Origin: Candidatus Electrothrix yaqonensis
GTDB lineage: Bacteria > Desulfobacterota > Desulfobulbia > Desulfobulbales > Desulfobulbaceae
DNA: 32,000 nucleotides
Assembly: GCA_047651235.1 (NCBI GenBank)
Contig: CP178758.1
Span: 1,680,001-1,712,000 of the forward strand
Direction of reading: 5' to 3'
In this document: in pieces, positions 21,789 through 31,637 of the stretch
Layout: every line of letters starts with the position of its first letter
Numbering within the stretch: the stretch's first letter is position 1
Translations under genes and position numbers: made by a program
The notes under the pieces: model-generated
Told to the model about the DNA's origin: nothing
What the model saw: only the letters and a program-made list of their open reading frames with translations
Database searches by the model: none

Positions 21789-22565
21789 GTGCTCATGCGG
21801 TTTTCTGTTGCAGGCTCCATACTTCTTGTTTCCTGGCTGCTGTTCTGTTTATTCTGTTCAGCGCAGGAAGCAGTGTCCGAGGATAAAATCTACAGATATG
21901 TTGATGAGCAGGGGGTTGCACATTATACGAATGTCCCCACTGACAGATATGAAGCCTTCACCTTTCCCCCTCTGTCAAATCCGAAGCAGGAAGGAATAAC
22001 CTTCAGAACCCCGAAGGTACGCCGCACGGACCGGAAGACCCTGCGGCTCCGCAGCAGGAAAGACCGTTCCAGAACCCGAGCTGATCATGGCACAGATACA
22101 TTTGATCATCATATCCGGAATGCAGCGCGTACCCACCGCCTTGATCCTCTGCTGATCAAAGCGGTGATCAAAACCGAGTCTAATTTCAACCGGTATGCTG
22201 TTTCTCCCAAAGGAGCCCAAGGACTCATGCAGCTCATGCCTGCCACAGCCAGACACCTCAAGGTCAGGGATCCGTTTGACCCGCAGCAGAATATCTACGG
22301 CGGCGCCAAGTATATCAGAGAACTCCTCGGACAGTTCAAGGGCAATCTGCATCTCAGCCTGGCTGCCTATAATGCCGGTCCGGCGCGGGTGATGAAAAAA
22401 AAGAGAATCCCCCGGATTCCGGAAACGATTGCCTATGTCCGCAAAGTGATCCGGCAGTACAGGGCCTACAAAAAAAACAGTAGACGGCAGACCTCTAACC
22501 ATCGTGATAACCGGGTCCCGCTGACGACCAGCATCCAGGTACGACAGATGGAAACCGTAAACTGA
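21789..22565 (+). CDS. lytic transglycosylase (SLT domain) with N-terminal DUF4124
   Basis: ESNFNRYAVSPKGAQGLMQLMP...YGGAKYIRELL...LAAYNAGPARV are SLT motifs. IYRYVDEQGVAHYTNVP is DUF4124-like. It has a signal peptide. The start is GTG 21789 or ATG 21795. Confidence 0.85.
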   Translation: MLMRFSVAGSILLVSWLLFCLFCSAQEAVSEDKIYRYVDEQGVAHYTNVPTDRYEAFTFPPLSNPKQEGITFRTPKVRRTDRKTLRLRSRKDRSRTRADHGTDTFDHHIRNAARTHRLDPLLIKAVIKTESNFNRYAVSPKGAQGLMQLMPATARHLKVRDPFDPQQNIYGGAKYIRELLGQFKGNLHLSLAAYNAGPARVMKKKRIPRIPETIAYVRKVIRQYRAYKKNSRRQTSNHRDNRVPLTTSIQVRQMETVN

Positions 22566-22593
22566 CCCTTTCTGCTTCTGCACGAGGAATATT

Positions 22594-23169
22594 GTGATAC
22601 AACAGCTGCCGAATCTGATCACCGGAGGCCGTCTTGTTCTGACCGTGCTGCTGGCCGTTCTGCTCATGTTTGAGCAGAAGACAAGTACAGCCCTGCTCTG
22701 CTGCCTGCTTTTTGCTCTGGCTGCCTCCACCGACTGGGTGGACGGCTATCTTGCCCGTCGTTTCGGGGCAGTAACCACCCTTGGCAAGCTGATGGACCCT
22801 CTGGCCGACAAGCTGCTTGTGGCCACAGCTCTGATCATGCTGATCCCGCTCCACCGGATTCCGGCCTGGGTTTCCCTTGTCATCCTCTCCCGTGAGATGC
22901 TGGTCACCGGCCTGCGGGGCGCAGCCTCGTCAAGCGGCATTGTCGTTGCTGCCAGCGGCTTGGGAAAAATAAAATCCATTGTCCAGTATATCGGCTTGGG
23001 ATTCCTTATTTTCCCCCTCGGCCTGCTGCCGATCCCGTATCTTCACCAGATCGGCCAAGGCATTGTTTATATTGCTCTGGTGCTTACCGTCTGGTCAGGA
23101 CTTGATTATTTCTATAAACTGCGCCGGGTCTTTCTCGATAAAGAAGGTCAGGAGGGCGGGAAGCGGTAA
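22594..23169 (+). CDS. pgsA: CDP-diacylglycerol--glycerol-3-phosphate 3-phosphatidyltransferase
   Basis: The CDP-alcohol phosphotransferase motif DWVDGYLARRFGAVTTLGKLMDPLADK. GTG start preceded by GAGG. Confidence 0.9.
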   Translation: MIQQLPNLITGGRLVLTVLLAVLLMFEQKTSTALLCCLLFALAASTDWVDGYLARRFGAVTTLGKLMDPLADKLLVATALIMLIPLHRIPAWVSLVILSREMLVTGLRGAASSSGIVVAASGLGKIKSIVQYIGLGFLIFPLGLLPIPYLHQIGQGIVYIALVLTVWSGLDYFYKLRRVFLDKEGQEGGKR

Positions 23170-23210
23170 TTTTTCTTCCCCCCCCTTCCCTCCTTTTGAC
23201 AGGCTTCGTC

Positions 23211-23801
23211 TCAGCGCAGCCGTGCCCGGATATTCTCCTTGTGCTGCTCCAATGCCTCATTATAGCGGTCAGAAAGCTCTGTTTCCATTCTGCCCAGTTC
23301 TTCATTGACCTTGGCTGCCAAGGCATGTTCCGGATTAACGCCGCTGGCCTGCAGTTCTGCAGCCTGCTGGGCAAGCACATGCTCGTACTGCATTCGTATC
23401 TGGTCTTCCAGCTGCTGCCTGAGCTGATCCCGGTGTTGATTATACTGGCCGAGAATATGCTGCAGCTCGGAACAGATGCTGCACACATCTCCGGCATTGC
23501 CGCTGATCTCCAGCAGTCCGTTGACGGCCTTGTCTGTCCGCTCTTTGCCGAGTTCGTCGCGGTACAGAAAAATATTGCGCAGCAGGGTCTCCACCATGCC
23601 GCAGCGGATTGTCATCTGCTGCTCACCCGGCTGTTCAGCCAGGGCAGCTGACAGACTGTCCGCCTTGTCGTCGAGAAAATCCGCAGCCAACTTCATACCC
23701 AGCCTGCGCTCATCTTCCTGCTGCAGCTCATCATTGCTCGCCTTACTCATACGGGCAGCCCGTTCCATGACCAGCTCCAGAGTGGATTTTATTTCTGCCA
23801 T
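23211..23801 (-). CDS. hypothetical helical/coiled-coil protein (196 aa)
   Basis: Clean ORF with backbone-like composition. No family recognised. Confidence 0.5.
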   Translation of the reverse strand: MAEIKSTLELVMERAARMSKASNDELQQEDERRLGMKLAADFLDDKADSLSAALAEQPGEQQMTIRCGMVETLLRNIFLYRDELGKERTDKAVNGLLEISGNAGDVCSICSELQHILGQYNQHRDQLRQQLEDQIRMQYEHVLAQQAAELQASGVNPEHALAAKVNEELGRMETELSDRYNEALEQHKENIRARLR

Positions 23802-23938
23802 TCTATTTCTCCTTGCCGCTGTTTCTGCAGCGAATTGTCAATTATTCAATATTGCGTGGTCCTGCGATCGTAATCTCTGATATAATTTTACACTTAAAAT
23901 CTCATAGTTTACCGAACCATTGTCCGATTGCTTTCTCT

Positions 23939-24073
23939 TTACAAAATTCCCAGGATATGGATATCGTCTTTCAAGAGTTCACTGAGGAAACCTTCCAGGA
24001 TGTCGAAATTGGCCTTGCTCCGCAGGAGCTTTTTCATGGCCCAGTCAAAGCTGACGAGTTTTCGGGTTGGCAT
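23939..24073 (-). pseudogene. 5' remnant of an Rpn/PDDEXK_2 nuclease gene (nonsense codon, then decay)
   Basis: Hand translation from ATG 24073 gives MPTRKLVSFDWAMKKLLRSKANFDILEGFLSELLKDDIHILGIL*. The residues after the TAA (RESNRT) still resemble the expected ...SESN.. continuation. It is below the ORF-track length cut-off. Confidence 0.6.
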
Positions 24074-24090
24074 GTTGATTCTCTGTGCTG

Positions 24091-24948
24091 TTAGGGCTTC
24101 ATCTTTCTGAACGCAGCAATATGGTCTCTGACTTCAGGATCGACCTTGTCATCATCGGCAATCTTGCGCGCCAAGGCCAAACGGCAATCCACTGCATCTT
24201 CCTGTTTTTCTCCCAGCAAGTGTAATCGCTTGAGAATCGCCTTGCCGTTCAGAATCCGATTTACTTGATGCCATTGGTTGACAGGATCATCGTTGTCGTC
24301 ACCGGCAAAACACGCAGCCTTGTTTATTTTTTCATCCAGCTCTACTGAATCAACGCCTTGCTTTTTCAAACTGGTTCGCAAGTCCTGAGACGTGCCCGAT
24401 AACCCGGCCATACTATCGCTGACTTTTTTCTCACCCTTAACATGACAACAGGCATCAGCAGCTGTGAGCACGGTAAATAACTCAACTTCATCTGATGACA
24501 ACGGAATTGGTGCAGGTCGTTCCTGGACATTGCCAAAACGGTCGGCCTTGACGGAGGCAATAATATCCGGTTCCAGCAGCAGGTAGTTTTCTATCTCCCA
24601 GCGACTAAGCACCTTGATATTCTCTCCATATGGCTGACAGGCCCTGAAGTCGCTATCGTCATACTCCCACCAGCACTGCCAATGACGATCTTTCAGCAGA
24701 ACATCGCGGTCAACCAAGCCGACACTTTTAATTCCCTTCTCCTTGTCATTATTCACTTTCCTGATGACCTGATTACAGCCGCCACCCTGCCCTTTTTCGC
24801 CAGCAGAGCGAAACTCTATATTCTCATCATAAAACCAACGATCGCCAATAATCACCCTGTCTTCTTCGGATTCCAGATAAACAACCACCCGGCTCAGATA
24901 GGATTTCTCTGCGAACTCCGTTGCTGATTTATCTTTGAAGGCCGTCAT
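24091..24948 (-). CDS. DUF4435/Toprim-like protein (AriB-like, OLD-family-type nuclease domain)
   Basis: Acidic Toprim-type motifs are VVVYLESEEDRVI and VGLVDRDVL, followed by WEIENYLLLEP, which is typical of DUF4435. The start is 9 nt after the upstream ATPase stop. Confidence 0.65.
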   Translation of the reverse strand: MTAFKDKSATEFAEKSYLSRVVVYLESEEDRVIIGDRWFYDENIEFRSAGEKGQGGGCNQVIRKVNNDKEKGIKSVGLVDRDVLLKDRHWQCWWEYDDSDFRACQPYGENIKVLSRWEIENYLLLEPDIIASVKADRFGNVQERPAPIPLSSDEVELFTVLTAADACCHVKGEKKVSDSMAGLSGTSQDLRTSLKKQGVDSVELDEKINKAACFAGDDNDDPVNQWHQVNRILNGKAILKRLHLLGEKQEDAVDCRLALARKIADDDKVDPEVRDHIAAFRKMKP

Positions 24949-24957
24949 ACTCGAACA

Positions 24958-26124
24958 TTACTCCATGTTCTCTTCTATAATTTCGCCACCCTTACGTAAT
25001 CCCTTTTCTTTATGCTCAAACCCGAAGGCCCGCAGCATTTCTATGGAATGCGTGGCAAGAATAATGGTGATTCCCGGATATTCCTGAGCAAACTCGCGCA
25101 ACTGTTTCATCAGGCGTTTCTGCCAGTTCGGGTGGAGATGAATTTCCGGCTCATCAATCAGGATAATAGAATTGCGGGTGCAGTGCGCCCCAATACGCAG
25201 GAAGAGCTGGACCAAGTTCTTTTCTCCACTGCTCAACCGGTCCAGTCCATGCTCCTGGCCCTTGGAAACAACGATTGCCTCCGGCGGCGTTTTACGTACA
25301 CCTTTGAGAAAGGTCGTGCTGCCCTGAAAGACGCGCTTATTGATAATATCAACGGCTTTTTCCAGGCGACCATCGTCCAGCCATTTCATCCAGACCAGCA
25401 CGTTATCTAAAGAATTTCCCCAGGATTTGCTGTGGGAAGAAAATTTTCGGACAGGGCTGTAGCCCCAATAATCAGGTTCGGAAATCCGTCGCCTTTGCGA
25501 GGTTATCTTCGGAATGTTGCGGTATGCACTGAAGTGGAGTAAGGTCGGAAGTCCACAAGAACTTATCTCAAAATTATCCGGGTCAGCCCCTTCCCGCTGG
25601 CGGAACAGCGTTTGTATTTTTTTTCTTGTGACATGATTCTGAGATATAAAACGAAAGGTTCCTTTCGCTCTCCATTGAAATCCTCTTTTTTCCTGTCGCT
25701 CCGCCCCATGCTTGTGCAAATCTTCGTCGCTCCAGACAAAAAGACGATCTTCGGAAAATTTACCAGTCTCATCAGAAAAATTCCCGGCCAACAAGGAAAG
25801 AACTATATTTCGAGGTGTATTATCATCTTCAACGACCTGTACAAGTATATCCCATTGAACAGCAAGCTCTCCGTTGTCCAAGCCCTCCACGCCGCAAGAG
25901 GTCATTTCTTCCTTGCCAAGCATCCCCATAAGAGCTGTCATAATCTCCAGCACGGTTGTTTTCCCCCTGCCGTTTTCTGACATAAGGAGAAAAACATTGC
26001 ATGGCTTTCCCTCTTCATCTGTGAAGTCTATCTCATAGGGATTCTCTGGAAACGGTCCGTTTCCTTCGATTCGGAGGCGTAGAGGTTGGAAGGCATTGAT
26101 GACTGGAATGGTTATTTTATCCAT
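24958..26124 (-). CDS. ABC/SMC-type ATPase of the AAA_15/AAA_21 group (AriA-like)
   Basis: Walker A ENGRGKTTVLE, signature LSSGEKNLVQL, Walker B IILIDEPEIHLHP and H-loop ILATHS. About 250 aa are inserted between Walker A and the signature. Confidence 0.75.
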   Translation of the reverse strand: MDKITIPVINAFQPLRLRIEGNGPFPENPYEIDFTDEEGKPCNVFLLMSENGRGKTTVLEIMTALMGMLGKEEMTSCGVEGLDNGELAVQWDILVQVVEDDNTPRNIVLSLLAGNFSDETGKFSEDRLFVWSDEDLHKHGAERQEKRGFQWRAKGTFRFISQNHVTRKKIQTLFRQREGADPDNFEISSCGLPTLLHFSAYRNIPKITSQRRRISEPDYWGYSPVRKFSSHSKSWGNSLDNVLVWMKWLDDGRLEKAVDIINKRVFQGSTTFLKGVRKTPPEAIVVSKGQEHGLDRLSSGEKNLVQLFLRIGAHCTRNSIILIDEPEIHLHPNWQKRLMKQLREFAQEYPGITIILATHSIEMLRAFGFEHKEKGLRKGGEIIEENME

Positions 26125-26146: not shown

Positions 26147-28156
26147 TTATGAAGCTACAGGTATTTGAACCTCTTTAAGGCTCACTGCGCTATTCGCAAT
26201 AGAAATCTCAACTAATTCGTTCGCCGTTTTCTCTTTAGCAAAAAGAGCCTCTCGTTCTAATTTGAGTTTTTCATCGATAAAATTATGCCTGAGTTCAAAC
26301 TCTGTAAATATCTCACTCCATGTTTTTGCATAAAATTTTATTCTTCCGTTATCTTGATATAGTAGCAGCCCTTTTTCTCCGTGAGGTTTATTTGTCTCTA
26401 TTTGTACTTCAATAAAACCAGATGTATCGAACCGTTTCCCAACAAGATAAAATTTCCACGTAATGTTGGAAGCATTAAACTCAGGCTGTTTCTTTATAAC
26501 GTCAATATATCGAAGAACCTGAAGATATTCTTTTTGTCCCAGGTTAATTCGATTATGCTTCAACTCAACAACTACATTTTCAATTGTATCGGTCAATTTA
26601 TTTTGCCGACATGCGAAAATATCCATCTCTCTATTTTTATCGAGATGTTCGATTTTCCGGTCATAAATGGTTCCTGATATTTCGTAAACATATCGCCTTA
26701 ATGCTTCCTCAAACTTAGGTTCAGCCGCCGTAACAAGATGATATTGCTCTCCAAAAAACCAATAATTATTTTCTATCAACGTCTGCAAATGATTAACTTC
26801 ATTTGCTTTCAAATCGCTATTAAAAACTAATTCTTTCAAGATGTAATAGGTTCTATATCTATCCTCAATCAATTTGATTGTAGAAATAATTCTATTCAAC
26901 CTTGTTGACTTAAAAAGACCTGCAAGCTCCTCTCTTACTTCCGACTCTAAACTTGCCACTTCTTCCAAAATAGTGAGAATATGCTCACGCTCATTTGAAT
27001 CCAGCAGTAAATCTAAAAATCTAACAAAAGTTTTCTTTTGTTCTAAGTTGAGATTAGAAAATATTTTTGGCTGAACTTCATATAAACTAATTATAGTATC
27101 CTTCAATTCATTTTTGCGGAGTACATCCCAATCATTTTTATATTCTGGAAGAATACCATTCTTCTCAAACTCTTCGACCATTGCAAGAGCATAATCTCTC
27201 AAATAAGGCTTTCTTTTTAACCTTAAATAGTTACCAAGCTCTTTATGTAAGAATTTATATTCAACAGAATTCCTTGCCTTTGTAAAAAGAGACAATTGAG
27301 TAGAATCCTCGTTTGAGGAAAAATCAAAATCTTTAAAAAAATCACTAACAATAAAAACACTATGATAGAAATGATCTCCTTTTCTATTCATAGTTGTATA
27401 CCTCTTAAATATCTCTTTCTGAGAGCTATCAAGATAATAAAATCTTGAATATTCTTTATTTAATGGTTCTCGCCATTGAAAAAAACGTATCCCAAAAAAA
27501 GTCTTTTCTTCGAAGTTAAGTTCAAACTCATCGTTATCACATATAAGCTGTTCATAGTCTATCGGCTCCCCATTCACTATCAATCTGTAATCTTTTGATT
27601 TATTCAACTCGAGAAACCAACAAAATTCTTTCTTTAAATATGGAATAATGTCTCCTTCCATATCATTCTGGCTTATAGTAAGGTTATTAAAAATTACTGT
27701 GGTACCTGACCTAGATTCTTCTTTCTTATTTTTTTCTACTTGATACCTTTTTAGATCCCAAGCACTAACGCTTATCACCCCACTTGTTATTCCACCATTT
27801 TCATAAGCAGTATGCCATTCGGCATGATCAGCAAAGGTGAAAAAGGTTAGCCTTCCTACTCCATTTTTTCCATGTAGTATAGACGAATGCTTAGGAGATT
27901 GAATCTGTATTGTCTTCTCTGAGTCATAAAATTTATCAAATTTCTCTTTTAAATTATCAAGATCTATCCCGTGTCCATCATCTTTTATTGAAAGCTGCTC
28001 TATTACCCCAAGCTTGTCCAACTCATAATTGATTTCTACTGTTCTTGCTTTTGCGTCAAATCCATTCCATATATATTCGGCCACTCCGTGGTAACATTTA
28101 TACCTTTTAAGGACTTTCTTGATCCCTGAAGATGTTATTTTAACGTCTCGTTTCAT
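26147..28156 (-). CDS. GHKL (Bergerat-fold) ATPase fused to a C-terminal PD-(D/E)xK, DUF4263/Shedu-like nuclease module (669 aa)
   Basis: N box E27-x3-N31-x2-D34 (VAEYIWNGFDAKA), G1 DDGHGI, G2 GKNGVGRLTFF, then SGTTVIF. The C-terminus reads NYWFFGEQYHLV...MDIFAC...VVVELKH...EYLQVLRY (D...ExK...Q..Y). Sampled 60-nt lines are about 27-35% G+C. Confidence 0.7.
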   Translation of the reverse strand: MKRDVKITSSGIKKVLKRYKCYHGVAEYIWNGFDAKARTVEINYELDKLGVIEQLSIKDDGHGIDLDNLKEKFDKFYDSEKTIQIQSPKHSSILHGKNGVGRLTFFTFADHAEWHTAYENGGITSGVISVSAWDLKRYQVEKNKKEESRSGTTVIFNNLTISQNDMEGDIIPYLKKEFCWFLELNKSKDYRLIVNGEPIDYEQLICDNDEFELNFEEKTFFGIRFFQWREPLNKEYSRFYYLDSSQKEIFKRYTTMNRKGDHFYHSVFIVSDFFKDFDFSSNEDSTQLSLFTKARNSVEYKFLHKELGNYLRLKRKPYLRDYALAMVEEFEKNGILPEYKNDWDVLRKNELKDTIISLYEVQPKIFSNLNLEQKKTFVRFLDLLLDSNEREHILTILEEVASLESEVREELAGLFKSTRLNRIISTIKLIEDRYRTYYILKELVFNSDLKANEVNHLQTLIENNYWFFGEQYHLVTAAEPKFEEALRRYVYEISGTIYDRKIEHLDKNREMDIFACRQNKLTDTIENVVVELKHNRINLGQKEYLQVLRYIDVIKKQPEFNASNITWKFYLVGKRFDTSGFIEVQIETNKPHGEKGLLLYQDNGRIKFYAKTWSEIFTEFELRHNFIDEKLKLEREALFAKEKTANELVEISIANSAVSLKEVQIPVAS

Positions 28157-28244: not shown

Positions 28245-28997
28245 TCATTCTTCCCCCAACTCCGCTATCTCATCCACCGACAACCCAGTAGCCTCAGCCA
28301 CAAACTCACGAGTAACACCTTTCCGTAGCAAATTCTTTGCAACGAGCCGCGTTGCCTCCTTGGCCCCTTCCTCAATCATCCTGGCCCGCTCCTCCGGCGA
28401 AAGATGATCTCGCCGGATGGATTCAAACAGCTTCTGAATAACCCCTTCAGGATACTGACTCTCATCCACCTCTTCATCAAGGGTATCATTAATGGCCCGC
28501 AACCATTCCCGATACGGCTCCGGTGTTTCCTTGAAAACGTATTTTGGACAGAGATAAATGACTTTATGGGAAATTTCGCCGAGCGGATTACCTGCCAGAT
28601 CATGTGGATCAAAATCAACCACTGCAATATCCCGCTGATGGCGGTCGCTGGAGGTGAGGACAACCACAGTATACACCGTCAGGGGAGGACGATAATTTTT
28701 AGAGCTTGCAACCTGTTCCAGCAGAGCCGCGCAATGATAATAGAGAAAACGATCATAATGATCGTTGGTCCGGGCATGTTGGATATCGACAATAAGCCGA
28801 TGCTCATTGTCTTCCGCAAAGAGATCAAAGCGGGGTTTGACGTAGCCAATGGGTGGATCAAATTCCTTTTCTGTCTCCACACGGTCAAAGCTGACAGGCC
28901 GACCGATCATAGCCTGGGCAAAGGCAGTGAAAATCTCCGGGTCGCAGAAGGCCTTCTTAAAAACAACACCGTATTTCAAAGATGCTACTTTCTTCAT
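28245..28997 (-). CDS. Rpn-family PD-(D/E)XK nuclease ('putative transposase', PDDEXK_2-like), full length
   Basis: LKYGVVFKKAFCDPEIFTAFAQAMI N-terminus, FDLFAEDNEHRLIVDIQH nuclease core and a helical C-terminal tail. It lies 88 nt upstream of the GHKL gene on the same strand. Confidence 0.7.
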   Translation of the reverse strand: MKKVASLKYGVVFKKAFCDPEIFTAFAQAMIGRPVSFDRVETEKEFDPPIGYVKPRFDLFAEDNEHRLIVDIQHARTNDHYDRFLYYHCAALLEQVASSKNYRPPLTVYTVVVLTSSDRHQRDIAVVDFDPHDLAGNPLGEISHKVIYLCPKYVFKETPEPYREWLRAINDTLDEEVDESQYPEGVIQKLFESIRRDHLSPEERARMIEEGAKEATRLVAKNLLRKGVTREFVAEATGLSVDEIAELGEE

Positions 28998-29055
28998 TCA
29001 TACGTACCAGGCTGAATTCAAGAGAGAAACACTGCCCAAAATATCCAAAAAACAA

Positions 29056-29673
29056 TCACCCCTTCCGCATCAAGGCCGGATAATCCTCGCGCAGGAAATT
29101 ATGGAGCAGCACCGGCCCAACACCGGTCATGATGGATTCGGGATGAAACTGCACGCCCTCCACATTCAGGGTCTTATGGCGTATACCCATCAACTCACCT
29201 TGATCTGTATGAGCTGTAACCTCAAGGCAATCCGGCAGAGTGGATTCCTCCACCACCAACGAATGATAGCGCATTCCGTCAAAAGGATTATCCAGACCGT
29301 AGAACACCCCGCGACCATCGTGGTGCATGGGACTGGTCTTGCCGTGCATCACCCTACCCGCCCGGATTACCTTACCACCAAAGGCCTCGCCGATGGATTG
29401 GTGCCCAAGACAAACACCGAGGATAGGAATCTTGCCGCTAAAATACTGAATAGCCTCCACAGAGATTCCCGCTTCCTTGGGGGTGCAGGGACCAGGGGAA
29501 ATCAGCAAGCGGTCCGGTGCCATATCAGCAATTTCCTGCACCGTGATCTTATCGTTGCGAAAGACCCGGATATCCGGCTGCTGCCAGTCCGCAGGCGCAC
29601 CCGGAGGGGCGGCAGCAAGGGTCTGGACAATATTAAAGGTAAACGAATCGTAGTTATCAATAAGAACAATCAC
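29056..29673 (-). CDS. trpG: anthranilate synthase component II (glutamine amidotransferase, TrpG/PabA)
   Basis: IVLIDNYDSFTFNIVQ, the catalytic ILGVCLGHQ, and FHPES. GTG start 2 nt after the trpE stop. Confidence 0.9.
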   Translation of the reverse strand: MIVLIDNYDSFTFNIVQTLAAAPPGAPADWQQPDIRVFRNDKITVQEIADMAPDRLLISPGPCTPKEAGISVEAIQYFSGKIPILGVCLGHQSIGEAFGGKVIRAGRVMHGKTSPMHHDGRGVFYGLDNPFDGMRYHSLVVEESTLPDCLEVTAHTDQGELMGIRHKTLNVEGVQFHPESIMTGVGPVLLHNFLREDYPALMRKG

Positions 29674-29675
29674 GG

Positions 29676-31181
29676 TTAGATCCCCTGTTCAGCAAGTTCT
29701 ACAGCCCGGCGTAAGCCTTTGGCCTTGTTGACCGTTTCCTCGAATTCTTTTTCCGGCACAGAGTCGGCCACAATCCCAGCCCCGGCCTGAATCCAGATAT
29801 CGTTCCCCTTCATCACAAAAGTGCGGATGGTGATGCAGAAATCCATGTTGCCGGAAAACCCAAAATACCCCACTGCCCCGGCATAGGGGCCGCGCCGTGC
29901 CGGTTCCAGCTCGTCGATGATCTCCATTGCCCGGATCTTGGGTGCCCCGCTGACTGTCCCGGCCGGGAAACAGGCCTCCAGCACGTCAAACTGATCCTTG
30001 CCCTCTGCCAGTCTGCCGTGGACCCCGGAAACAATATGCATAACATGGCTGTACTGCTCAACCACCAACAGATCACCAGTAGCTACTGAGCCGCCTGCCG
30101 CCACCCGGCCCACATCATTACGCCCCAAGTCCACCAACATCAGATGCTCGGCCCGTTCTTTGGGATCCGCCAGTAGCTCCTCTTCCAGCTCCTTGTCCTC
30201 CTGCGGGGTTGCGCCCCGCTTCCGGGTTCCGGCAATGGGCCGCAGCTCTATCTCGCCGTCTTCCAGACGCACCAGAATTTCCGGCGAGGAACCGATCAAA
30301 ATGATATCGTCCAGACGCAGGTAGAACAGATAGGGACTGGGATTGATATGGCGCAGGGATCGGTAGAGGAGAAAGGGATCCAGCTCGGTTTTGGTCTGAA
30401 AGCGTTGAGACAACACCACCTGAATGATATCACCGGCCAGAATGTATTCCTTGGCCCGCTCCACCATAGCGGAAAAGGTCGGCTCATCCATATTGGAGGT
30501 GAAGGTGTGCGCCGGGCAGCCGCCCGCGTGTGCTGCCAACGAAGCAGGTAACGGCCCTCTGATCTGCTCGATAATTTTATTGATACGCCTGCAGCCGTCC
30601 TCATAGAGCGCGGTGCTGTCCGCCCTGCCCTCTTCTTTGTCAGGCACAACATTACAAACCACGGTCAGGGTTTGATTGACCGAATCGTGGATCAGTACCA
30701 GCCGGGGGACAATAAAGGAGGAATCCGGCATATCAAGGGGCGGATGCTGATCCGGCATTTTCTCGATAAAACGGATCATATCATAGCCGAGGAATCCGAC
30801 AGCGCCGCCGTAGAAACGGGGCAGGCCCGGTGCGGTGCTGGCGTTGAAGGAGGTCAGCAGATCCCGCAGTGCCTGAAACGGATTCACGCCCTCCCGGACA
30901 TCCTCAGTCTCAGCCTCAATCTTGGAACTGGCTCTTCGCAGAGTGACCGTGCTTCCGGCAGAAGAAAAAGACAGCAGCGGGTCCAGTCCGATAAAAGAAT
31001 ACCGACCCCACTTTTCCCCGCCTTCCATGGATTCAAACAGGAAGGCGTGCTCTTCCTTTTCTGCGACCTTGGCAAAAATGGTCAGCGGGGTGTCGAGGTC
31101 CGCGACAATCGTCCGATGCAGCGGAACAAGCCCGGCCTGCTCCAGCATCGCGGCAAATGCTTCCTGATCAGGAGAATACAT
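29676..31181 (-). CDS. trpE: anthranilate synthase component I
   Basis: LFESMEGGEKWGRYSFIG, PSPYLFYL, GAGIVADSVPEKEFEET and other chorismate-binding motifs. Start taken at MYSPDQ (31181). Confidence 0.9.
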   Translation of the reverse strand: MYSPDQEAFAAMLEQAGLVPLHRTIVADLDTPLTIFAKVAEKEEHAFLFESMEGGEKWGRYSFIGLDPLLSFSSAGSTVTLRRASSKIEAETEDVREGVNPFQALRDLLTSFNASTAPGLPRFYGGAVGFLGYDMIRFIEKMPDQHPPLDMPDSSFIVPRLVLIHDSVNQTLTVVCNVVPDKEEGRADSTALYEDGCRRINKIIEQIRGPLPASLAAHAGGCPAHTFTSNMDEPTFSAMVERAKEYILAGDIIQVVLSQRFQTKTELDPFLLYRSLRHINPSPYLFYLRLDDIILIGSSPEILVRLEDGEIELRPIAGTRKRGATPQEDKELEEELLADPKERAEHLMLVDLGRNDVGRVAAGGSVATGDLLVVEQYSHVMHIVSGVHGRLAEGKDQFDVLEACFPAGTVSGAPKIRAMEIIDELEPARRGPYAGAVGYFGFSGNMDFCITIRTFVMKGNDIWIQAGAGIVADSVPEKEFEETVNKAKGLRRAVELAEQGI

Positions 31182-31275
31182 GTTTATCCTCTCACAACAG
31201 TACAATCAAAGTATAACCAAAAGAACCCGCCTCACGTTCACGGCAATGCACATGGCAATGAACATGGACAGGAAA

Positions 31276-31309
31276 CAAAAAAAGCCACGGAAGACCAGCT
31301 TCCATGGCT
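31276..31309 (-). terminator. intrinsic terminator downstream of rpsT
   Basis: The minus strand reads AGCCATGGAAG-CTGGT-CTTCCGTGGCT (an 11-bp stem with one G-U pair), followed by TTTTTTTG. Confidence 0.8.
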
Positions 31310-31364
31310 CATAACTCTGCTTCGGCAGCCGGAGAATTCCCTGCGAATTCTCTGCGCAGACCGG

Positions 31365-31637
31365 TCAGCTGAGAGGCATCATGCGGTTAACCCGTAAAGT
31401 CAGCCTGGAGATTTTGCGGGACGCAGTCTTTTTGTGAATAGTCCCCTTACCTGCTGTCTTCTGGATAACGGGAATTGCTGCCTGCAATGCCTCCTGCGCC
31501 GCATCTTCGGCACCGGCCACCAATGCCTCTTCAACCCGGCGGACCGCAGTATGCATTCTTGATTTATTCATCCGATTCCGCATACGACGCACTTGAGACT
31601 GTCTGTGCCTCTTTAACGCTGATTTGTGATTAGCCAT
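31365..31637 (-). CDS. rpsT: 30S ribosomal protein S20
   Basis: MANHKSALKRHRQSQVRRMRNRMNKSRMHTAVRRVEEAL is a canonical S20 N-terminus. Confidence 0.95.
   Translation of the reverse strand: MANHKSALKRHRQSQVRRMRNRMNKSRMHTAVRRVEEALVAGAEDAAQEALQAAIPVIQKTAGKGTIHKKTASRKISRLTLRVNRMMPLS

What the first reader, a model, noticed from the sequence alone, without database searches (positions are those of the whole stretch)
26147..28156. Compositionally foreign 669-aa GHKL ATPase with a Shedu/DUF4263-like PD-(D/E)xK C-terminus
**Seen in sequence:**
- N-terminal GHKL motifs: E27/N31/D34, DDGHGI, GKNGVGRLTFF and SGTTVIF.
- An uncharacterised, largely helical middle region of about 300 aa.
- A C-terminal block NYWFFGEQYHLV...REMDIFAC...ENVVVELKHNRINLGQKEYLQVLRY. 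It has the order and spacing I associate with DUF4263 (Shedu SduA) restriction-endonuclease-fold domains.
- Hand counts of two 60-nt lines give about 27% and 35% G+C. That compares with about 57% in a line of the adjacent ATPase gene and about 48% in trpG. This gene therefore looks separately acquired from a low-GC donor and dropped between the Rpn gene and the PARIS-like pair.

**Established knowledge:** prokaryotic MORC/paraMORC GHKL ATPases fused or linked to nuclease domains have been predicted as conflict-system components. Shedu nuclease domains are known to be coupled to diverse N-terminal sensor domains.

**Inference:** a GHKL-regulated Shedu-type nuclease would be an unusual single-protein effector.
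Basis: partly seen in the sequence, partly recalled or inferred. Interest (0 to 1): 0.7.

Follow-up and report, generated by a model that had tools for sequence, protein, structure and literature searches.

The report
GHKL ATPase fused to Shedu-type nuclease
This AT-rich gene in a cable bacterium encodes one protein that joins an Hsp90/MutL-type ATPase to a restriction-enzyme-like nuclease, a kind of anti-phage defence protein that was predicted in 2008 and shown to work in Vibrio cholerae in 2025, so it is real but not new.

Summary
The ORF at 26147-28156 (-) encodes 669 aa and has 33% G+C (GC3 0.28), against 47-57% in its neighbours. The N-terminus is a GHKL ATPase (Pfam HATPase_c_3, E 2.5e-16), and the model resembles Hsp90, TopoII, MutL and MORC. 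The C-terminus (about residues 451-632) models confidently (pLDDT 88.8) as a PD-(D/E)xK nuclease. D512, E531 and K533 are invariant in 212 of 212 homologues.

The protein itself does not match the Pfam SduA_C (DUF4263) or PADLOC SduA models. However, its C-terminal profile aligns to a 584-aa family that carries both HATPase_c_3 and SduA_C (hhalign 97.4%, E 1.1e-11), with the catalytic residues in register.

The architecture is already published. It was named paraMORC3 (Iyer 2008) and later Shedu type 1D (Gu 2023). VcSduA was shown to be an anti-phage protein that needs both its ATPase (E27A) and its nuclease (K557A) (Adams 2025).

The claim that the gene was dropped between the Rpn gene and the PARIS-like pair is not supported. 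In Electronema the homologue directly follows trpG. Low G+C is also a family-wide trait: the gene is below its flanks in 49 of 49 loci.

Verdict: a new member of a known kind, of modest interest.

The parts
26147..28156 (-). Complete CDS of 669 aa plus stop codon: a single-polypeptide GHKL-ATPase/PD-(D/E)xK nuclease.
   Evidence: ORF list. It is 100% identical to P0001, annotated 'ATP-binding protein', Candidatus Electrothrix sp. YB6. G+C 0.33, GC3 0.28.
27677..28156 (-). Residues 1-160: GHKL (Bergerat-fold) ATPase domain. Motif I is E27-x3-N31-x2-D34, motif II is D59-x-G61-x-G63, motif III is G96/G99/G101, and motif IV is G151-T152.
   Evidence: Pfam HATPase_c_3, E 2.5e-16, 60.4 bits against a cutoff of 25, residues 24-139. 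Conservation in 212 homologues: E27 206, N31 211, D59 210, G99 210, G101 210, T152 208. The best Foldseek PDB matches are Hsp90/TRAP1, TopoII, MutL and MORC.
27302..27676 (-). Residues about 161-285: beta-rich middle domain, probably the GHKL-associated transducer (S5-like) domain.
   Evidence: DSSP strands at 191-270. Foldseek alignments of 315-450 columns to the N-terminal plus middle modules of Hsp90, TopoII and MORC. Conserved T254, N257, H265 and S266. The boundaries are approximate, and the S5 assignment is inferred from the literature.
26807..27301 (-). Residues about 286-450: all-helical linker or clamp region.
   Evidence: Helices 286-445 in the model, with pLDDT 50-90. No Pfam hit. 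It aligns column for column with the helical region of the 584-aa GHKL+SduA_C family in the full-length hhalign.
26261..26806 (-). Residues about 451-632: PD-(D/E)xK nuclease domain of the Shedu (SduA_C/DUF4263) lineage. Key residues are E453, Q458, E462, W466, G469-E470, D512, E531-x-K533, Q546 and Y550.
   Evidence: The model of residues 440-640 has pLDDT 88.8 and pTM 0.84, with alpha-beta-beta-beta-alpha-beta order. Best Foldseek PDB hits are EndoMS/NucS (E 9.8e-3, prob 0.99), MspJI, EcoRI, McrC, FokI, BamHI, Cap4 and HamA. hhalign to the nuclease region of the PF13589+PF14082 family gives prob 97.4%, E 1.1e-11, over 145 columns. D512, E531 and K533 are conserved in 212/212, and E470 and Q546 in 211/212. 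There is a weak Pfam HSDR_N_2 hit (E 0.0026).
26150..26260 (-). Residues about 633-669: poorly conserved, low-confidence C-terminal tail.
   Evidence: pLDDT below 50 at 627-635, 658-663 and 665-669. The alignment columns are variable.

Best explanation
The gene encodes a stand-alone anti-phage or anti-plasmid nuclease of the paraMORC3 / Shedu type 1D kind.

**Shown here**
- One polypeptide joins an intact GHKL ATPase with a transducer-like domain, a roughly 165-aa helical linker, and an intact PD-(D/E)xK nuclease.
- That nuclease is homologous to the SduA_C (DUF4263) domain of a recognised GHKL-Shedu family.
- Both catalytic centres are under strong purifying selection.

**Inferred from VcSduA and from general GHKL and Shedu biology**
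- The protein is proposed to dimerise through its GHKL domains.
- ATP binding and hydrolysis is proposed to drive a clamp-like movement of the middle and helical region.
- That movement would license the C-terminal nuclease to cut invading DNA directly, without killing the host.

It works on its own. The neighbouring Rpn gene and the AAA/DUF4435 pair are separate occupants of the same small defence island downstream of trpG.
For: - **GHKL domain:** above the Pfam threshold, with all four motifs present.
- **Whole-protein model:** it matches Hsp90/TRAP1, TopoII, MutL and MORC ATPase modules.
- **C-terminal model:** pLDDT 88.8. Its top solved-structure matches are almost all PD-(D/E)xK nucleases, with EndoMS/NucS first. 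Loeff et al. report distant homology between SduA and NucS/EndoMS.
- **Catalytic conservation:** D512, E531 and K533 are invariant in 212 full-length homologues spanning 26-100% identity. E27 is kept in 206 and N31 in 211.
- **Profile-profile homology:** against a 584-aa family whose members carry PF13589+PF14082 and which sources name 'DUF4263 domain-containing protein'. Full length gives prob 99.6%, E 7.9e-24, over 530 columns. The C-terminus alone gives prob 97.4%, E 1.1e-11. E470 aligns to D, D512 to D, E531-x-K533 to ExK, and Q546 to Q.
- **Weak direct hits in the family:** some members touch the SduA models. Pfam SduA_C is hit by 4 of 28 (best E 6.4e-4). PADLOC SduA reaches 7.8e-7.
- **Mobile, defence-like distribution:**
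  - 305 relatives among 185,579 species genomes, spread over Bacteroidota, Chloroflexota, Firmicutes, Cyanobacteria, CPR (candidate phyla radiation) and archaea.
  - Copies on plasmids and in two Pasteurella phages.
  - No universal partner gene. About 10 of 84 loci lie inside type I R-M operons.
  - Always AT-richer than the flanks.
- **Literature:**
  - paraMORC3 is GHKL + S5 + a restriction-endonuclease-fold domain with E-D-ExK. It is stand-alone and found in proteobacteria and bacteroidetes (PMC2292703).
  - Shedu type 1D includes HATPase_c_3 + N24 + DUF4263 (10.1101/2023.08.10.552793).
  - VcSduA protects against T1-like phages and vibriophage X29. Protection is lost in E27A and K557A, and it holds at all tested multiplicities of infection, meaning it is non-abortive (PMC12137116).
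Against: - The window protein itself does not match Pfam SduA_C, any PADLOC SduA model, or any NCBIfam Shedu model.
- The nearest Pfam family for the C-terminus is HSDR_N_2, hit by 27 of 28 family members.
- No solved Shedu chain appeared among the top 50 Foldseek matches.
- Neither the C-terminal profile nor the 584-aa family profile found Shedu chains in PDB sequences.
- I could not obtain the VcSduA sequence, so its relation to this subfamily is untested.
- No function was measured here. The oligomeric state and the ATP-gating step are inferences.
Confidence: 0.75

Rival explanations
1. It is the ATP-dependent restriction subunit of an R-M-type system, of the paraMORC/HgiDII kind. In this reading it discriminates self from non-self through a DNA modification made by an unlinked methyltransferase, or it attacks modified DNA as a type IV enzyme does.
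For: - The N-terminal 180 aa resemble the NCBIfam BbrUII/HgiDII restriction-enzyme model (E 2.5e-15).
- Family members hit the PADLOC REase_II model PDLC03419 (up to 2.5e-9).
- The C-terminus resembles HSDR_N_2.
- About 10 of 84 loci sit between hsdR and hsdS/hsdM.
- One relative fuses the same nuclease to a PglX-like methyltransferase.
- Iyer et al. placed the paraMORCs mainly in R-M systems.
Against: - The BbrUII/HgiDII match scores 56 bits against a cutoff of 550, and it covers only the GHKL domain.
- None of the ten large ORFs scanned in the window showed a methyltransferase domain, and neither did any of the five genes scanned around the locus.
- Most loci have no conserved partner.
- Iyer et al. 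themselves noted that the nuclease-bearing paraMORC3 genes are stand-alone.
- VcSduA works alone in E. coli.
Confidence: 0.12
2. It is a housekeeping DNA-repair or DNA-maintenance factor of cable bacteria: a MutL-like ATPase joined to a NucS-like nuclease, retained vertically next to trpEG.
For: - The same slot downstream of trpG is occupied in Electrothrix and in two Electronema genomes.
- Between-genus identity of 64-68% is in the range of ribosomal protein S20 (67-69%).
- The best structural match of the nuclease is EndoMS/NucS.
- Some sources name relatives 'DNA mismatch repair protein'.
Against: - The distribution is extremely patchy. Relatives occur in 305 of 185,579 species genomes. The only cable-bacterial genome among the 80 best loci is Electronema sp. 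PJ.
- G+C of 0.30-0.33 persists against hosts of 0.50-0.59.
- Bacteroidales sequences nest inside the cable-bacterial clade in a neighbour-joining tree.
- Copies occur on plasmids and phages.
- The neighbours are defence-type genes.
Confidence: 0.05
3. It is an abortive-infection or toxin-type effector. Once triggered, it degrades host DNA as well as phage DNA, possibly in concert with the adjacent AAA/DUF4435 pair.
For: - Only 22 bp separate its stop codon from the start of the AAA ATPase gene on the same strand.
- A type 1B Shedu (PD-T4-8) was proposed to act by abortive infection.
- A KELShedu system is reported to be abortive (abstract of PMC12577705).
Against: - The pair is absent next to the homologue in Electronema.
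- In the 88%-identical relative the ATPase ORF is truncated after 58 aa while the GHKL gene stays intact.
- No partner is conserved across 84 loci.
- VcSduA protected at all tested multiplicities of infection.
Confidence: 0.08

Closest known systems
paraMORC3 family (Iyer, Abhiman & Aravind 2008, PMC2292703)
   Same: - N-terminal GHKL ATPase with a middle domain, followed by an extra C-terminal restriction-endonuclease-fold domain with an E-D-ExK signature. Here that signature is E470, D512 and E531-x-K533.
- Sporadic, laterally mobile distribution centred on bacteroidetes and proteobacteria.
- The nuclease-bearing members are stand-alone genes with no conserved neighbourhood.
   Different: - I had no paraMORC3 seed sequences, so identity with that family rests on matching its published description, not on an alignment.
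- This copy sits in a Desulfobulbaceae cable bacterium.
Shedu type 1D with a GHKL N-terminus (Gu et al. 2023, 10.1101/2023.08.10.552793). Represented here by the 584-aa HATPase_c_3 + SduA_C family (e.g. Croceibacter atlanticus, P0288).
   Same: - Same domain order.
- Homologous over 530 columns (hhalign 99.6%, E 7.9e-24).
- The nuclease domains are homologous on their own (97.4%, E 1.1e-11), with the catalytic residues in register.
   Different: - About 85 aa longer, with a longer middle and linker region.
- Only about 20% identity to the 584-aa family.
- Its C-terminus is not detected by Pfam SduA_C or PADLOC SduA, and instead scores weakly on HSDR_N_2.
- The two types can sit side by side in one genome, as in L085, so they are distinct paralogous lineages.
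VcSduA of Vibrio cholerae VSP-II(WASA) (Adams et al. 2025, PMC12137116)
   Same: - Single protein with a GHKL ATPase (catalytic E27, the same position as here), a clamp-like middle and a PD-(D/E)xK nuclease.
- Shown to defend against phages, with both activities required.
   Different: - The sequence was never retrieved, so homology to this subfamily is untested.
- Its ExK lysine is K557, against K533 here.
- It is reported to carry a DUF4263 domain, which this protein does not match directly.
Canonical Shedu SduA (B. cereus type 1A; E. coli EcSduA, PDB 8PS4/8PS5)
   Same: - A PD-(D/E)xK nuclease core preceded by a helical linker and regulated by an N-terminal domain.
- Distant NucS/EndoMS similarity is reported for SduA and is seen here too.
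   Different: - The N-terminal sensor is a GHKL ATPase rather than an sPC4/Whirly or novel fold.
- No direct sequence or Foldseek match to solved Shedu chains.
- Tetramer or octamer assembly was not examined.
MORC, MutL and Hsp90 GHKL ATPases
   Same: A Bergerat-fold ATPase plus a transducer-like domain. These are the top structural matches of the whole-protein model.
   Different: - Sequence identity is only 10-16%.
- None of them carries a PD-(D/E)xK domain at the C-terminus.
- Iyer et al. state that the paraMORCs lack the MORC-specific motif.

Membership tests
GHKL (Bergerat-fold) ATPase superfamily | Motifs I (ExxxNxxD), II (DxGxG), III (glycine-rich lid) and IV (GT). | tested here: met
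   E27/N31/D34, D59-G61-G63, G96/G99/G101 and G151-T152 are present. They are conserved in 204-211 of 212 homologues.
GHKL (Bergerat-fold) ATPase superfamily | Pfam HATPase_c_3 above the gathering threshold, and a GHKL fold. | tested here: met
   60.4 bits against a cutoff of 25. Foldseek E 4e-10 to 1e-8 to Hsp90/TRAP1, TopoII, MutL and MORC.
paraMORC3 (Iyer et al. 2008) | GHKL followed by an S5-fold (transducer) domain. | tested here: inconclusive
paraMORC3 (Iyer et al. 2008) | An additional conserved C-terminal restriction-endonuclease-fold domain with E-D-ExK. | tested here: met
   E470, D512 and E531-x-K533 are conserved in 211-212 of 212. The fold is PD-(D/E)xK.
paraMORC3 (Iyer et al. 2008) | Stand-alone gene with a sporadic distribution rich in bacteroidetes and proteobacteria. 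| tested here: met
   No partner is shared across 84 loci. For the taxa.
paraMORC3 (Iyer et al. 2008) | Sequence membership, meaning alignment to the family's own seed sequences. | not tested
Shedu (SduA, DUF4263 / Pfam PF14082 SduA_C) | A direct match of the protein to the SduA_C / DUF4263 model. | tested here: not met
   No PF14082 hit, even with the E-value limit raised to 10 on the isolated C-terminus. No PADLOC SduA hit at E<=0.1. Only 4 of 28 family members reach SduA_C, and those are sub-threshold.
Shedu (SduA, DUF4263 / Pfam PF14082 SduA_C) | Homology of the nuclease domain to bona fide DUF4263 domains by iterative or profile methods. This is the criterion Gu et al. used, via PSI-BLAST run to convergence. 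| tested here: met
   hhalign of the C-terminal profile against the PF14082-positive 584-aa family gives prob 97.4%, E 1.1e-11, over 145 columns. One member of that family scores 27.1 bits on SduA_C against a cutoff of 27.
Shedu (SduA, DUF4263 / Pfam PF14082 SduA_C) | Conserved D...ExK...Q catalytic set. | tested here: met
   D512, E531 and K533 in 212/212, and Q546 in 211/212. They align to D, ExK and Q of the SduA_C family.
Shedu (SduA, DUF4263 / Pfam PF14082 SduA_C) | Structural match to solved SduA nuclease domains (8PS4/8PS5, B. cereus Shedu). | tested here: inconclusive
Shedu (SduA, DUF4263 / Pfam PF14082 SduA_C) | Anti-phage activity that depends on the nuclease, and oligomerisation through the nuclease domain. 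| not testable with these tools
   This needs plaque assays and biochemistry. It is known for VcSduA only from the literature.
BbrUII/HgiDII restriction enzymes (NCBIfam NF050001) | A full-length match above the curated cutoff. | tested here: not met
   56.1 bits against a cutoff of 550. Only residues 25-202 match.
HsdR N-terminal nuclease domain (Pfam HSDR_N_2) | A match above the gathering threshold. | tested here: not met
   18.2 bits against a cutoff of 25 for this protein. Some relatives exceed the cutoff, at 27.7-28.1 bits. This shows shared PD-(D/E)xK ancestry rather than membership.

The most novel reading that the evidence does not exclude
The roughly 660-680-aa lineage to which this protein belongs may be a distinct and very widespread branch of GHKL-nuclease defence proteins that current detectors miss. 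That lineage has a catalytic Glu at residues 27-29, an ExK lysine at 530-541, and an HSDR_N_2-like signature. The Pfam SduA_C and PADLOC SduA models do not pick it up.

In cable bacteria it may have been held at one chromosomal slot downstream of trpG since before Electrothrix and Electronema diverged. All that time it would have kept about 30% G+C in hosts of 50-59% G+C. That would imply active selection for AT-richness, for example for xenogeneic silencing or expression control, rather than recent transfer.
Probability: 0.3. Interest if true: 0.4.

Novelty: new member of a known kind. Interest (0 to 1): 0.25.

Why it matters
- **Annotation:** it turns a bare 'ATP-binding protein' label in a cable-bacterium genome into a specific, testable prediction of a single-gene ATP-gated immune nuclease.
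- **A practical gap:** the window protein, and 24 of the 28 C-terminal domains scanned from its lineage, escape the Pfam SduA_C model. PADLOC's SduA models likewise miss the window protein and match only a few of the 30 relatives scanned. The lineage is large: 1871 word-index hits, and 305 of 185,579 species genomes. Surveys of Shedu that rely on those models are therefore likely to undercount the GHKL class.
- **No new biology:** the concept was predicted in 2008 and demonstrated in 2025.

Tried and rejected
- **Direct HMM routes to Shedu.** Pfam, PADLOC and NCBIfam gave no SduA hit on the whole protein or on the isolated C-terminus. Profile searches of PDB sequences with the C-terminal profile and with the 584-aa family profile found no Shedu chain.
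- **Retrieving VcSduA.**
  - Supplementary Table 7 of PMC12137116 is truncated in the held copy.
  - The Gu et al. supplements are not held.
  - Cluster look-ups of distant members gave no Vibrio cholerae protein.
  - A profile search seeded with Salmonella, Pasteurella-phage and Bradyrhizobium relatives found several Vibrio species but not V. cholerae.
  - No protein with E27 and K557 exists among the 542 fetched.
- **Mobile-element borders.** There is no tRNA in the window, and no meaningful direct or inverted repeats flank 23.6-29.2 kb.
- **Promoter and terminator scan.** Nothing rose above the shuffled expectation.
- **Functional link to the adjacent AAA/DUF4435 pair.** I rejected this because the pair is missing or decayed in relatives.
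Full report
**1. What is in the sequence**

The minus-strand ORF at 26147..28156 starts with ATG and encodes 669 aa. An AGGA lies 6-9 nt upstream of the start.

The composition claim is correct and sharp. The gene has G+C 0.330 and GC3 0.281. By comparison:
- The AAA ATPase gene has G+C 0.472, the DUF4435 gene 0.480 and the Rpn gene 0.493.
- trpG has 0.542 and trpE 0.567, and the neighbours' GC3 runs from 0.50 to 0.66.
- The sliding profile falls to 0.29-0.34 only inside the gene.

The window comes from Candidatus Electrothrix sp. YB6. The protein is 100% identical to XOF35231.1, which is annotated only as 'ATP-binding protein'.

**2. N-terminal half**

- Pfam HATPase_c_3 matches residues 24-139 (E 2.5e-16, 60.4 bits against a cutoff of 25).
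- An AlphaFold2 model built on 29 homologues has mean pLDDT 75.
- Its best solved-structure matches are Hsp90/TRAP1, topoisomerase II, MutL and MORC2/3/4 ATPase modules. These alignments span 315-450 columns, so they cover the GHKL domain plus a following beta-rich domain at residues about 161-285.
- The 'helical middle of about 300 aa' is therefore a transducer-like domain followed by a helical linker of about 165 aa (residues 286-450).
- In 212 full-length homologues (26-100% identity), the ATPase residues are conserved: E27 in 206, N31 in 211, D59 in 210, G99 and G101 in 210, and T152 in 208.

**3. C-terminal domain**

- Residues 440-640, modelled separately on 28 diverse sequences, give pLDDT 88.8 and pTM 0.84.
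- The element order is helix (E453, Q458, E462, W466, G469-E470), strand, helix, strand (D512), strand (E531-x-K533), helix (Q546, Y550), strand.
- Foldseek against the PDB returns almost only PD-(D/E)xK nucleases at the top. These are EndoMS/NucS (E 9.8e-3, prob 0.99), MspJI, EcoRI, McrC, FokI, BamHI, Cap4 and HamA. All are weak, and no Shedu chain is in the top 50.
- D512, E531 and K533 are invariant in 212 of 212 homologues. E470 and Q546 are conserved in 211 of 212.
- The refutation condition 'non-nuclease fold or unconserved catalytic residues' is therefore not met.

**4. Is it Shedu/DUF4263?**

Direct tests fail:
- There is no Pfam SduA_C hit on the protein or on its isolated C-terminus, even with a permissive E-value limit.
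- There is no PADLOC SduA hit and no NCBIfam hit beyond the GHKL domain.
- The nearest Pfam family is HSDR_N_2, matched by 27 of 28 family C-termini with a best E of 4.4e-7. SduA_C is touched by only 4 of 28, with a best E of 6.4e-4.
- PADLOC SduA models are hit by a few distant members, up to 7.8e-7. Those matches fall on the linker and the start of the nuclease domain.

A bridge turned up by chance:
- In contig L085 the homologue P0005 lies next to a split gene. One piece carries HATPase_c_3. The other carries SduA_C at Pfam's threshold (27.1 bits, E 5.4e-6).
- That gene belongs to a 584-aa family whose members carry PF13589+PF14082 and are named 'DUF4263 domain-containing protein' by some sources.
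- Profile-profile comparison of my family with that family gives prob 99.6%, E 7.9e-24, over 530 columns.
- The C-terminal profile alone gives prob 97.4%, E 1.1e-11, over 145 columns. E470 aligns to D, D512 to D, ExK to ExK, and Q546 to Q. The pairwise BLAST alignment shows the same register.

The C-terminus is therefore a divergent member of the Shedu nuclease lineage. It is detectable only by profile methods, which is how Gu et al. defined the family (PSI-BLAST run to convergence).

**5. What is already known**

- Iyer, Abhiman and Aravind (2008) defined paraMORC3 as GHKL + S5 + a C-terminal restriction-endonuclease-fold domain with E-D-ExK. They described it as common in proteobacteria and bacteroidetes, laterally mobile, and often stand-alone. 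That description fits this family point by point.
- Gu et al. (2023) list GHKL (HATPase_c_3 + 'N24' middle domain) among the type 1D Shedu architectures.
- Adams et al. (2025) showed that VcSduA, a GHKL-DUF4263 protein of V. cholerae, protects E. coli against T1-like phages and protects V. cholerae against X29. E27A and K557A each abolish protection. Protection holds at all tested multiplicities of infection. The protein is predicted to be an entwined dimer with a clamp-like middle domain.
- I could not retrieve the VcSduA sequence. Whether it belongs to this 660-680-aa lineage or to the 584-aa lineage remains open.

**6. Distribution and context**

- The family is large and patchy. The word-index search gave 1871 hits. 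The C-terminus alone found 812 cluster representatives. A scan of 185,579 species genomes found 305 relatives, spread over Bacteroidota, Ignavibacteria, Chloroflexota, Clostridia, Cyanobacteria, Acidobacteria, CPR (candidate phyla radiation) bacteria and archaea.
- More distant full-length relatives (23-44% identity) sit on plasmids of Deinococcus, rhizobia, Salmonella, Phaeobacter and Streptomyces. Two Pasteurella phages carry one, and in Pmp14 it lies between tail genes.
- Across 84 loci no partner gene is shared. About ten loci, almost all in Bacteroidota, lie between hsdR and hsdS/hsdM of type I R-M operons.
- One relative fuses the same nuclease domain to a PglX-like methyltransferase.
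- No methyltransferase domain was found in the ten large ORFs scanned in this window, or in the five genes scanned around the locus.

**7. History of the locus**

- In Electronema sp. PJ and VV the order is S20-trpE-trpG followed immediately by the homologue (67% and 63% identity). There is no Rpn gene and no AAA/DUF4435 pair. Gene G+C is 0.31 and 0.30 in local backgrounds of 0.51 and 0.59.
- An 88%-identical relative from a sequencing run shares Rpn-GHKL-AAA at 84.6% DNA identity over 2.5 kb. Its AAA ORF stops after 58 aa.
- Between the two genera, identities are TrpE 78%, TrpG 86%, S20 67-69%, and the GHKL protein 64-68%.
- The GHKL gene is therefore the shared occupant of this slot, and the Rpn gene and the PARIS-like pair are the variable additions.
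- I cannot decide between ancient vertical retention and a recurrent hot spot. Bacteroidales sequences nest within the cable-bacterial clade in a neighbour-joining tree. No other cable-bacterial species genome appeared among the best 80 loci.
- Low G+C is a property of the family, not of one donor. The gene is below its flanks in 49 of 49 loci, with means of 0.33 against 0.43.
- No tRNA and no flanking repeats mark an element border.

**8. Mechanism**

- Shown here: two intact, strongly conserved catalytic centres in one polypeptide, and homology to a recognised GHKL-Shedu family.
- Inferred: GHKL-mediated dimerisation, and ATP-driven clamp movement of the middle and helical region that licenses the nuclease to cut invading DNA without killing the host. 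This follows the VcSduA data and general GHKL and Shedu mechanisms.
- Rivals: an R-M-type restriction subunit with an unlinked methylase (0.12), an abortive effector (0.08), and a housekeeping repair factor (0.05).

**9. Verdict**

The structural interpretation is supported at profile level. The acquisition scenario and the novelty claim are not supported. This is a new member of a known kind. The useful side result is that the window protein, and most of the relatives scanned from its large lineage, escape the current Pfam and PADLOC Shedu models.

Noticed in passing
window 24091-26124 (-): Directly downstream, on the same strand and after a 22-bp gap, lie two genes. One is a 388-aa AAA_21/AAA_15 ATPase, whose best PADLOC hits are PtuA (2.5e-23) and AriA/AriAB (3e-21). 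The other is a 285-aa protein with weak DUF4435/AriB matches (E 0.003 and 4e-5). Together they look like a PARIS-like or Septu-like two-gene defence pair. In the 88%-identical relative (L089) the ATPase ORF stops after 58 aa.
   Followed up: partly
window 28245-28997 (-): A 250-aa Rpn-family / PDDEXK_2 'recombination-promoting nuclease/putative transposase' sits between trpG and the GHKL gene. It is absent from the same slot in Electronema PJ and VV, where trpG is followed directly by the GHKL homologue.
   Followed up: partly
49 related loci (L004-L083) and window 26147-28156: The gene is AT-richer than its flanks in 49 of 49 loci examined (mean 0.33 against 0.43). This includes hosts with 0.59-0.65 G+C, where the gene stays at 0.34-0.43. 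Low G+C is therefore a family trait. The cause is unexplained: it could be constant transfer, selection for silencing, or the K/N/I/F-rich amino-acid composition.
   Followed up: partly
L085:1847-7127 (GCA_016278705.1 contig JADQBI010000047.1): Two different GHKL-nuclease paralogues lie in tandem just downstream of a phage-type integrase. One is a 584-aa-type HATPase_c_3 + SduA_C gene that is split into ORFs of 96 and 475 aa. The other is an intact 666-aa homologue of the window protein.
   Followed up: partly
L087:3995-5953 (Pasteurella phage Pmp14, OR544131.1); also phage Pmp3: In phage Pmp14 a 652-aa full-length relative (about 24% identity, with E27 and an ExK at 530-532) is encoded between tail-module genes and is annotated 'hypothetical protein'. 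This looks like a phage-borne copy of the defence gene. Phage Pmp3 also carries a relative, but its context was not examined.
   Followed up: no
L012, L014, L017, L020, L024, L026, L028, L037 and others: In about 10 of 84 loci, almost all in Bacteroidota, the gene is inserted between hsdR (upstream) and hsdS/hsdM (downstream) of a type I R-M operon. A 500-aa ORF shared by seven of the 84 loci (not annotated here) accompanies it in some of them.
   Followed up: partly
protein P0243 (771 aa): Here the same nuclease domain (41% identity over residues 555-748) is fused to a PglX/type IIG-like N6-adenine methyltransferase instead of a GHKL ATPase. This shows that the nuclease module is shuffled between N-terminal partners, as reported for Shedu.
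   Followed up: no
window 23211-23801 (-) and 23800-24090: A 196-aa ORF has only a weak DUF6657 match and host-like G+C (0.56). G+C falls to about 0.45-0.49 across 23.8-26.1 kb and again across 28.2-29.0 kb, so the island spans roughly 23.8-29.0 kb between this ORF and trpG. The host-like pgsA-like gene lies beyond the ORF.
   Followed up: no
window 21789-23900 and 29000-31400, both strands: Many long ORFs overlap real genes on the opposite strand, for example 21975-22730, 28849-29679 and 30672-31397. These are the usual artefacts of stop-poor, higher-GC DNA and not genes.
   Followed up: no
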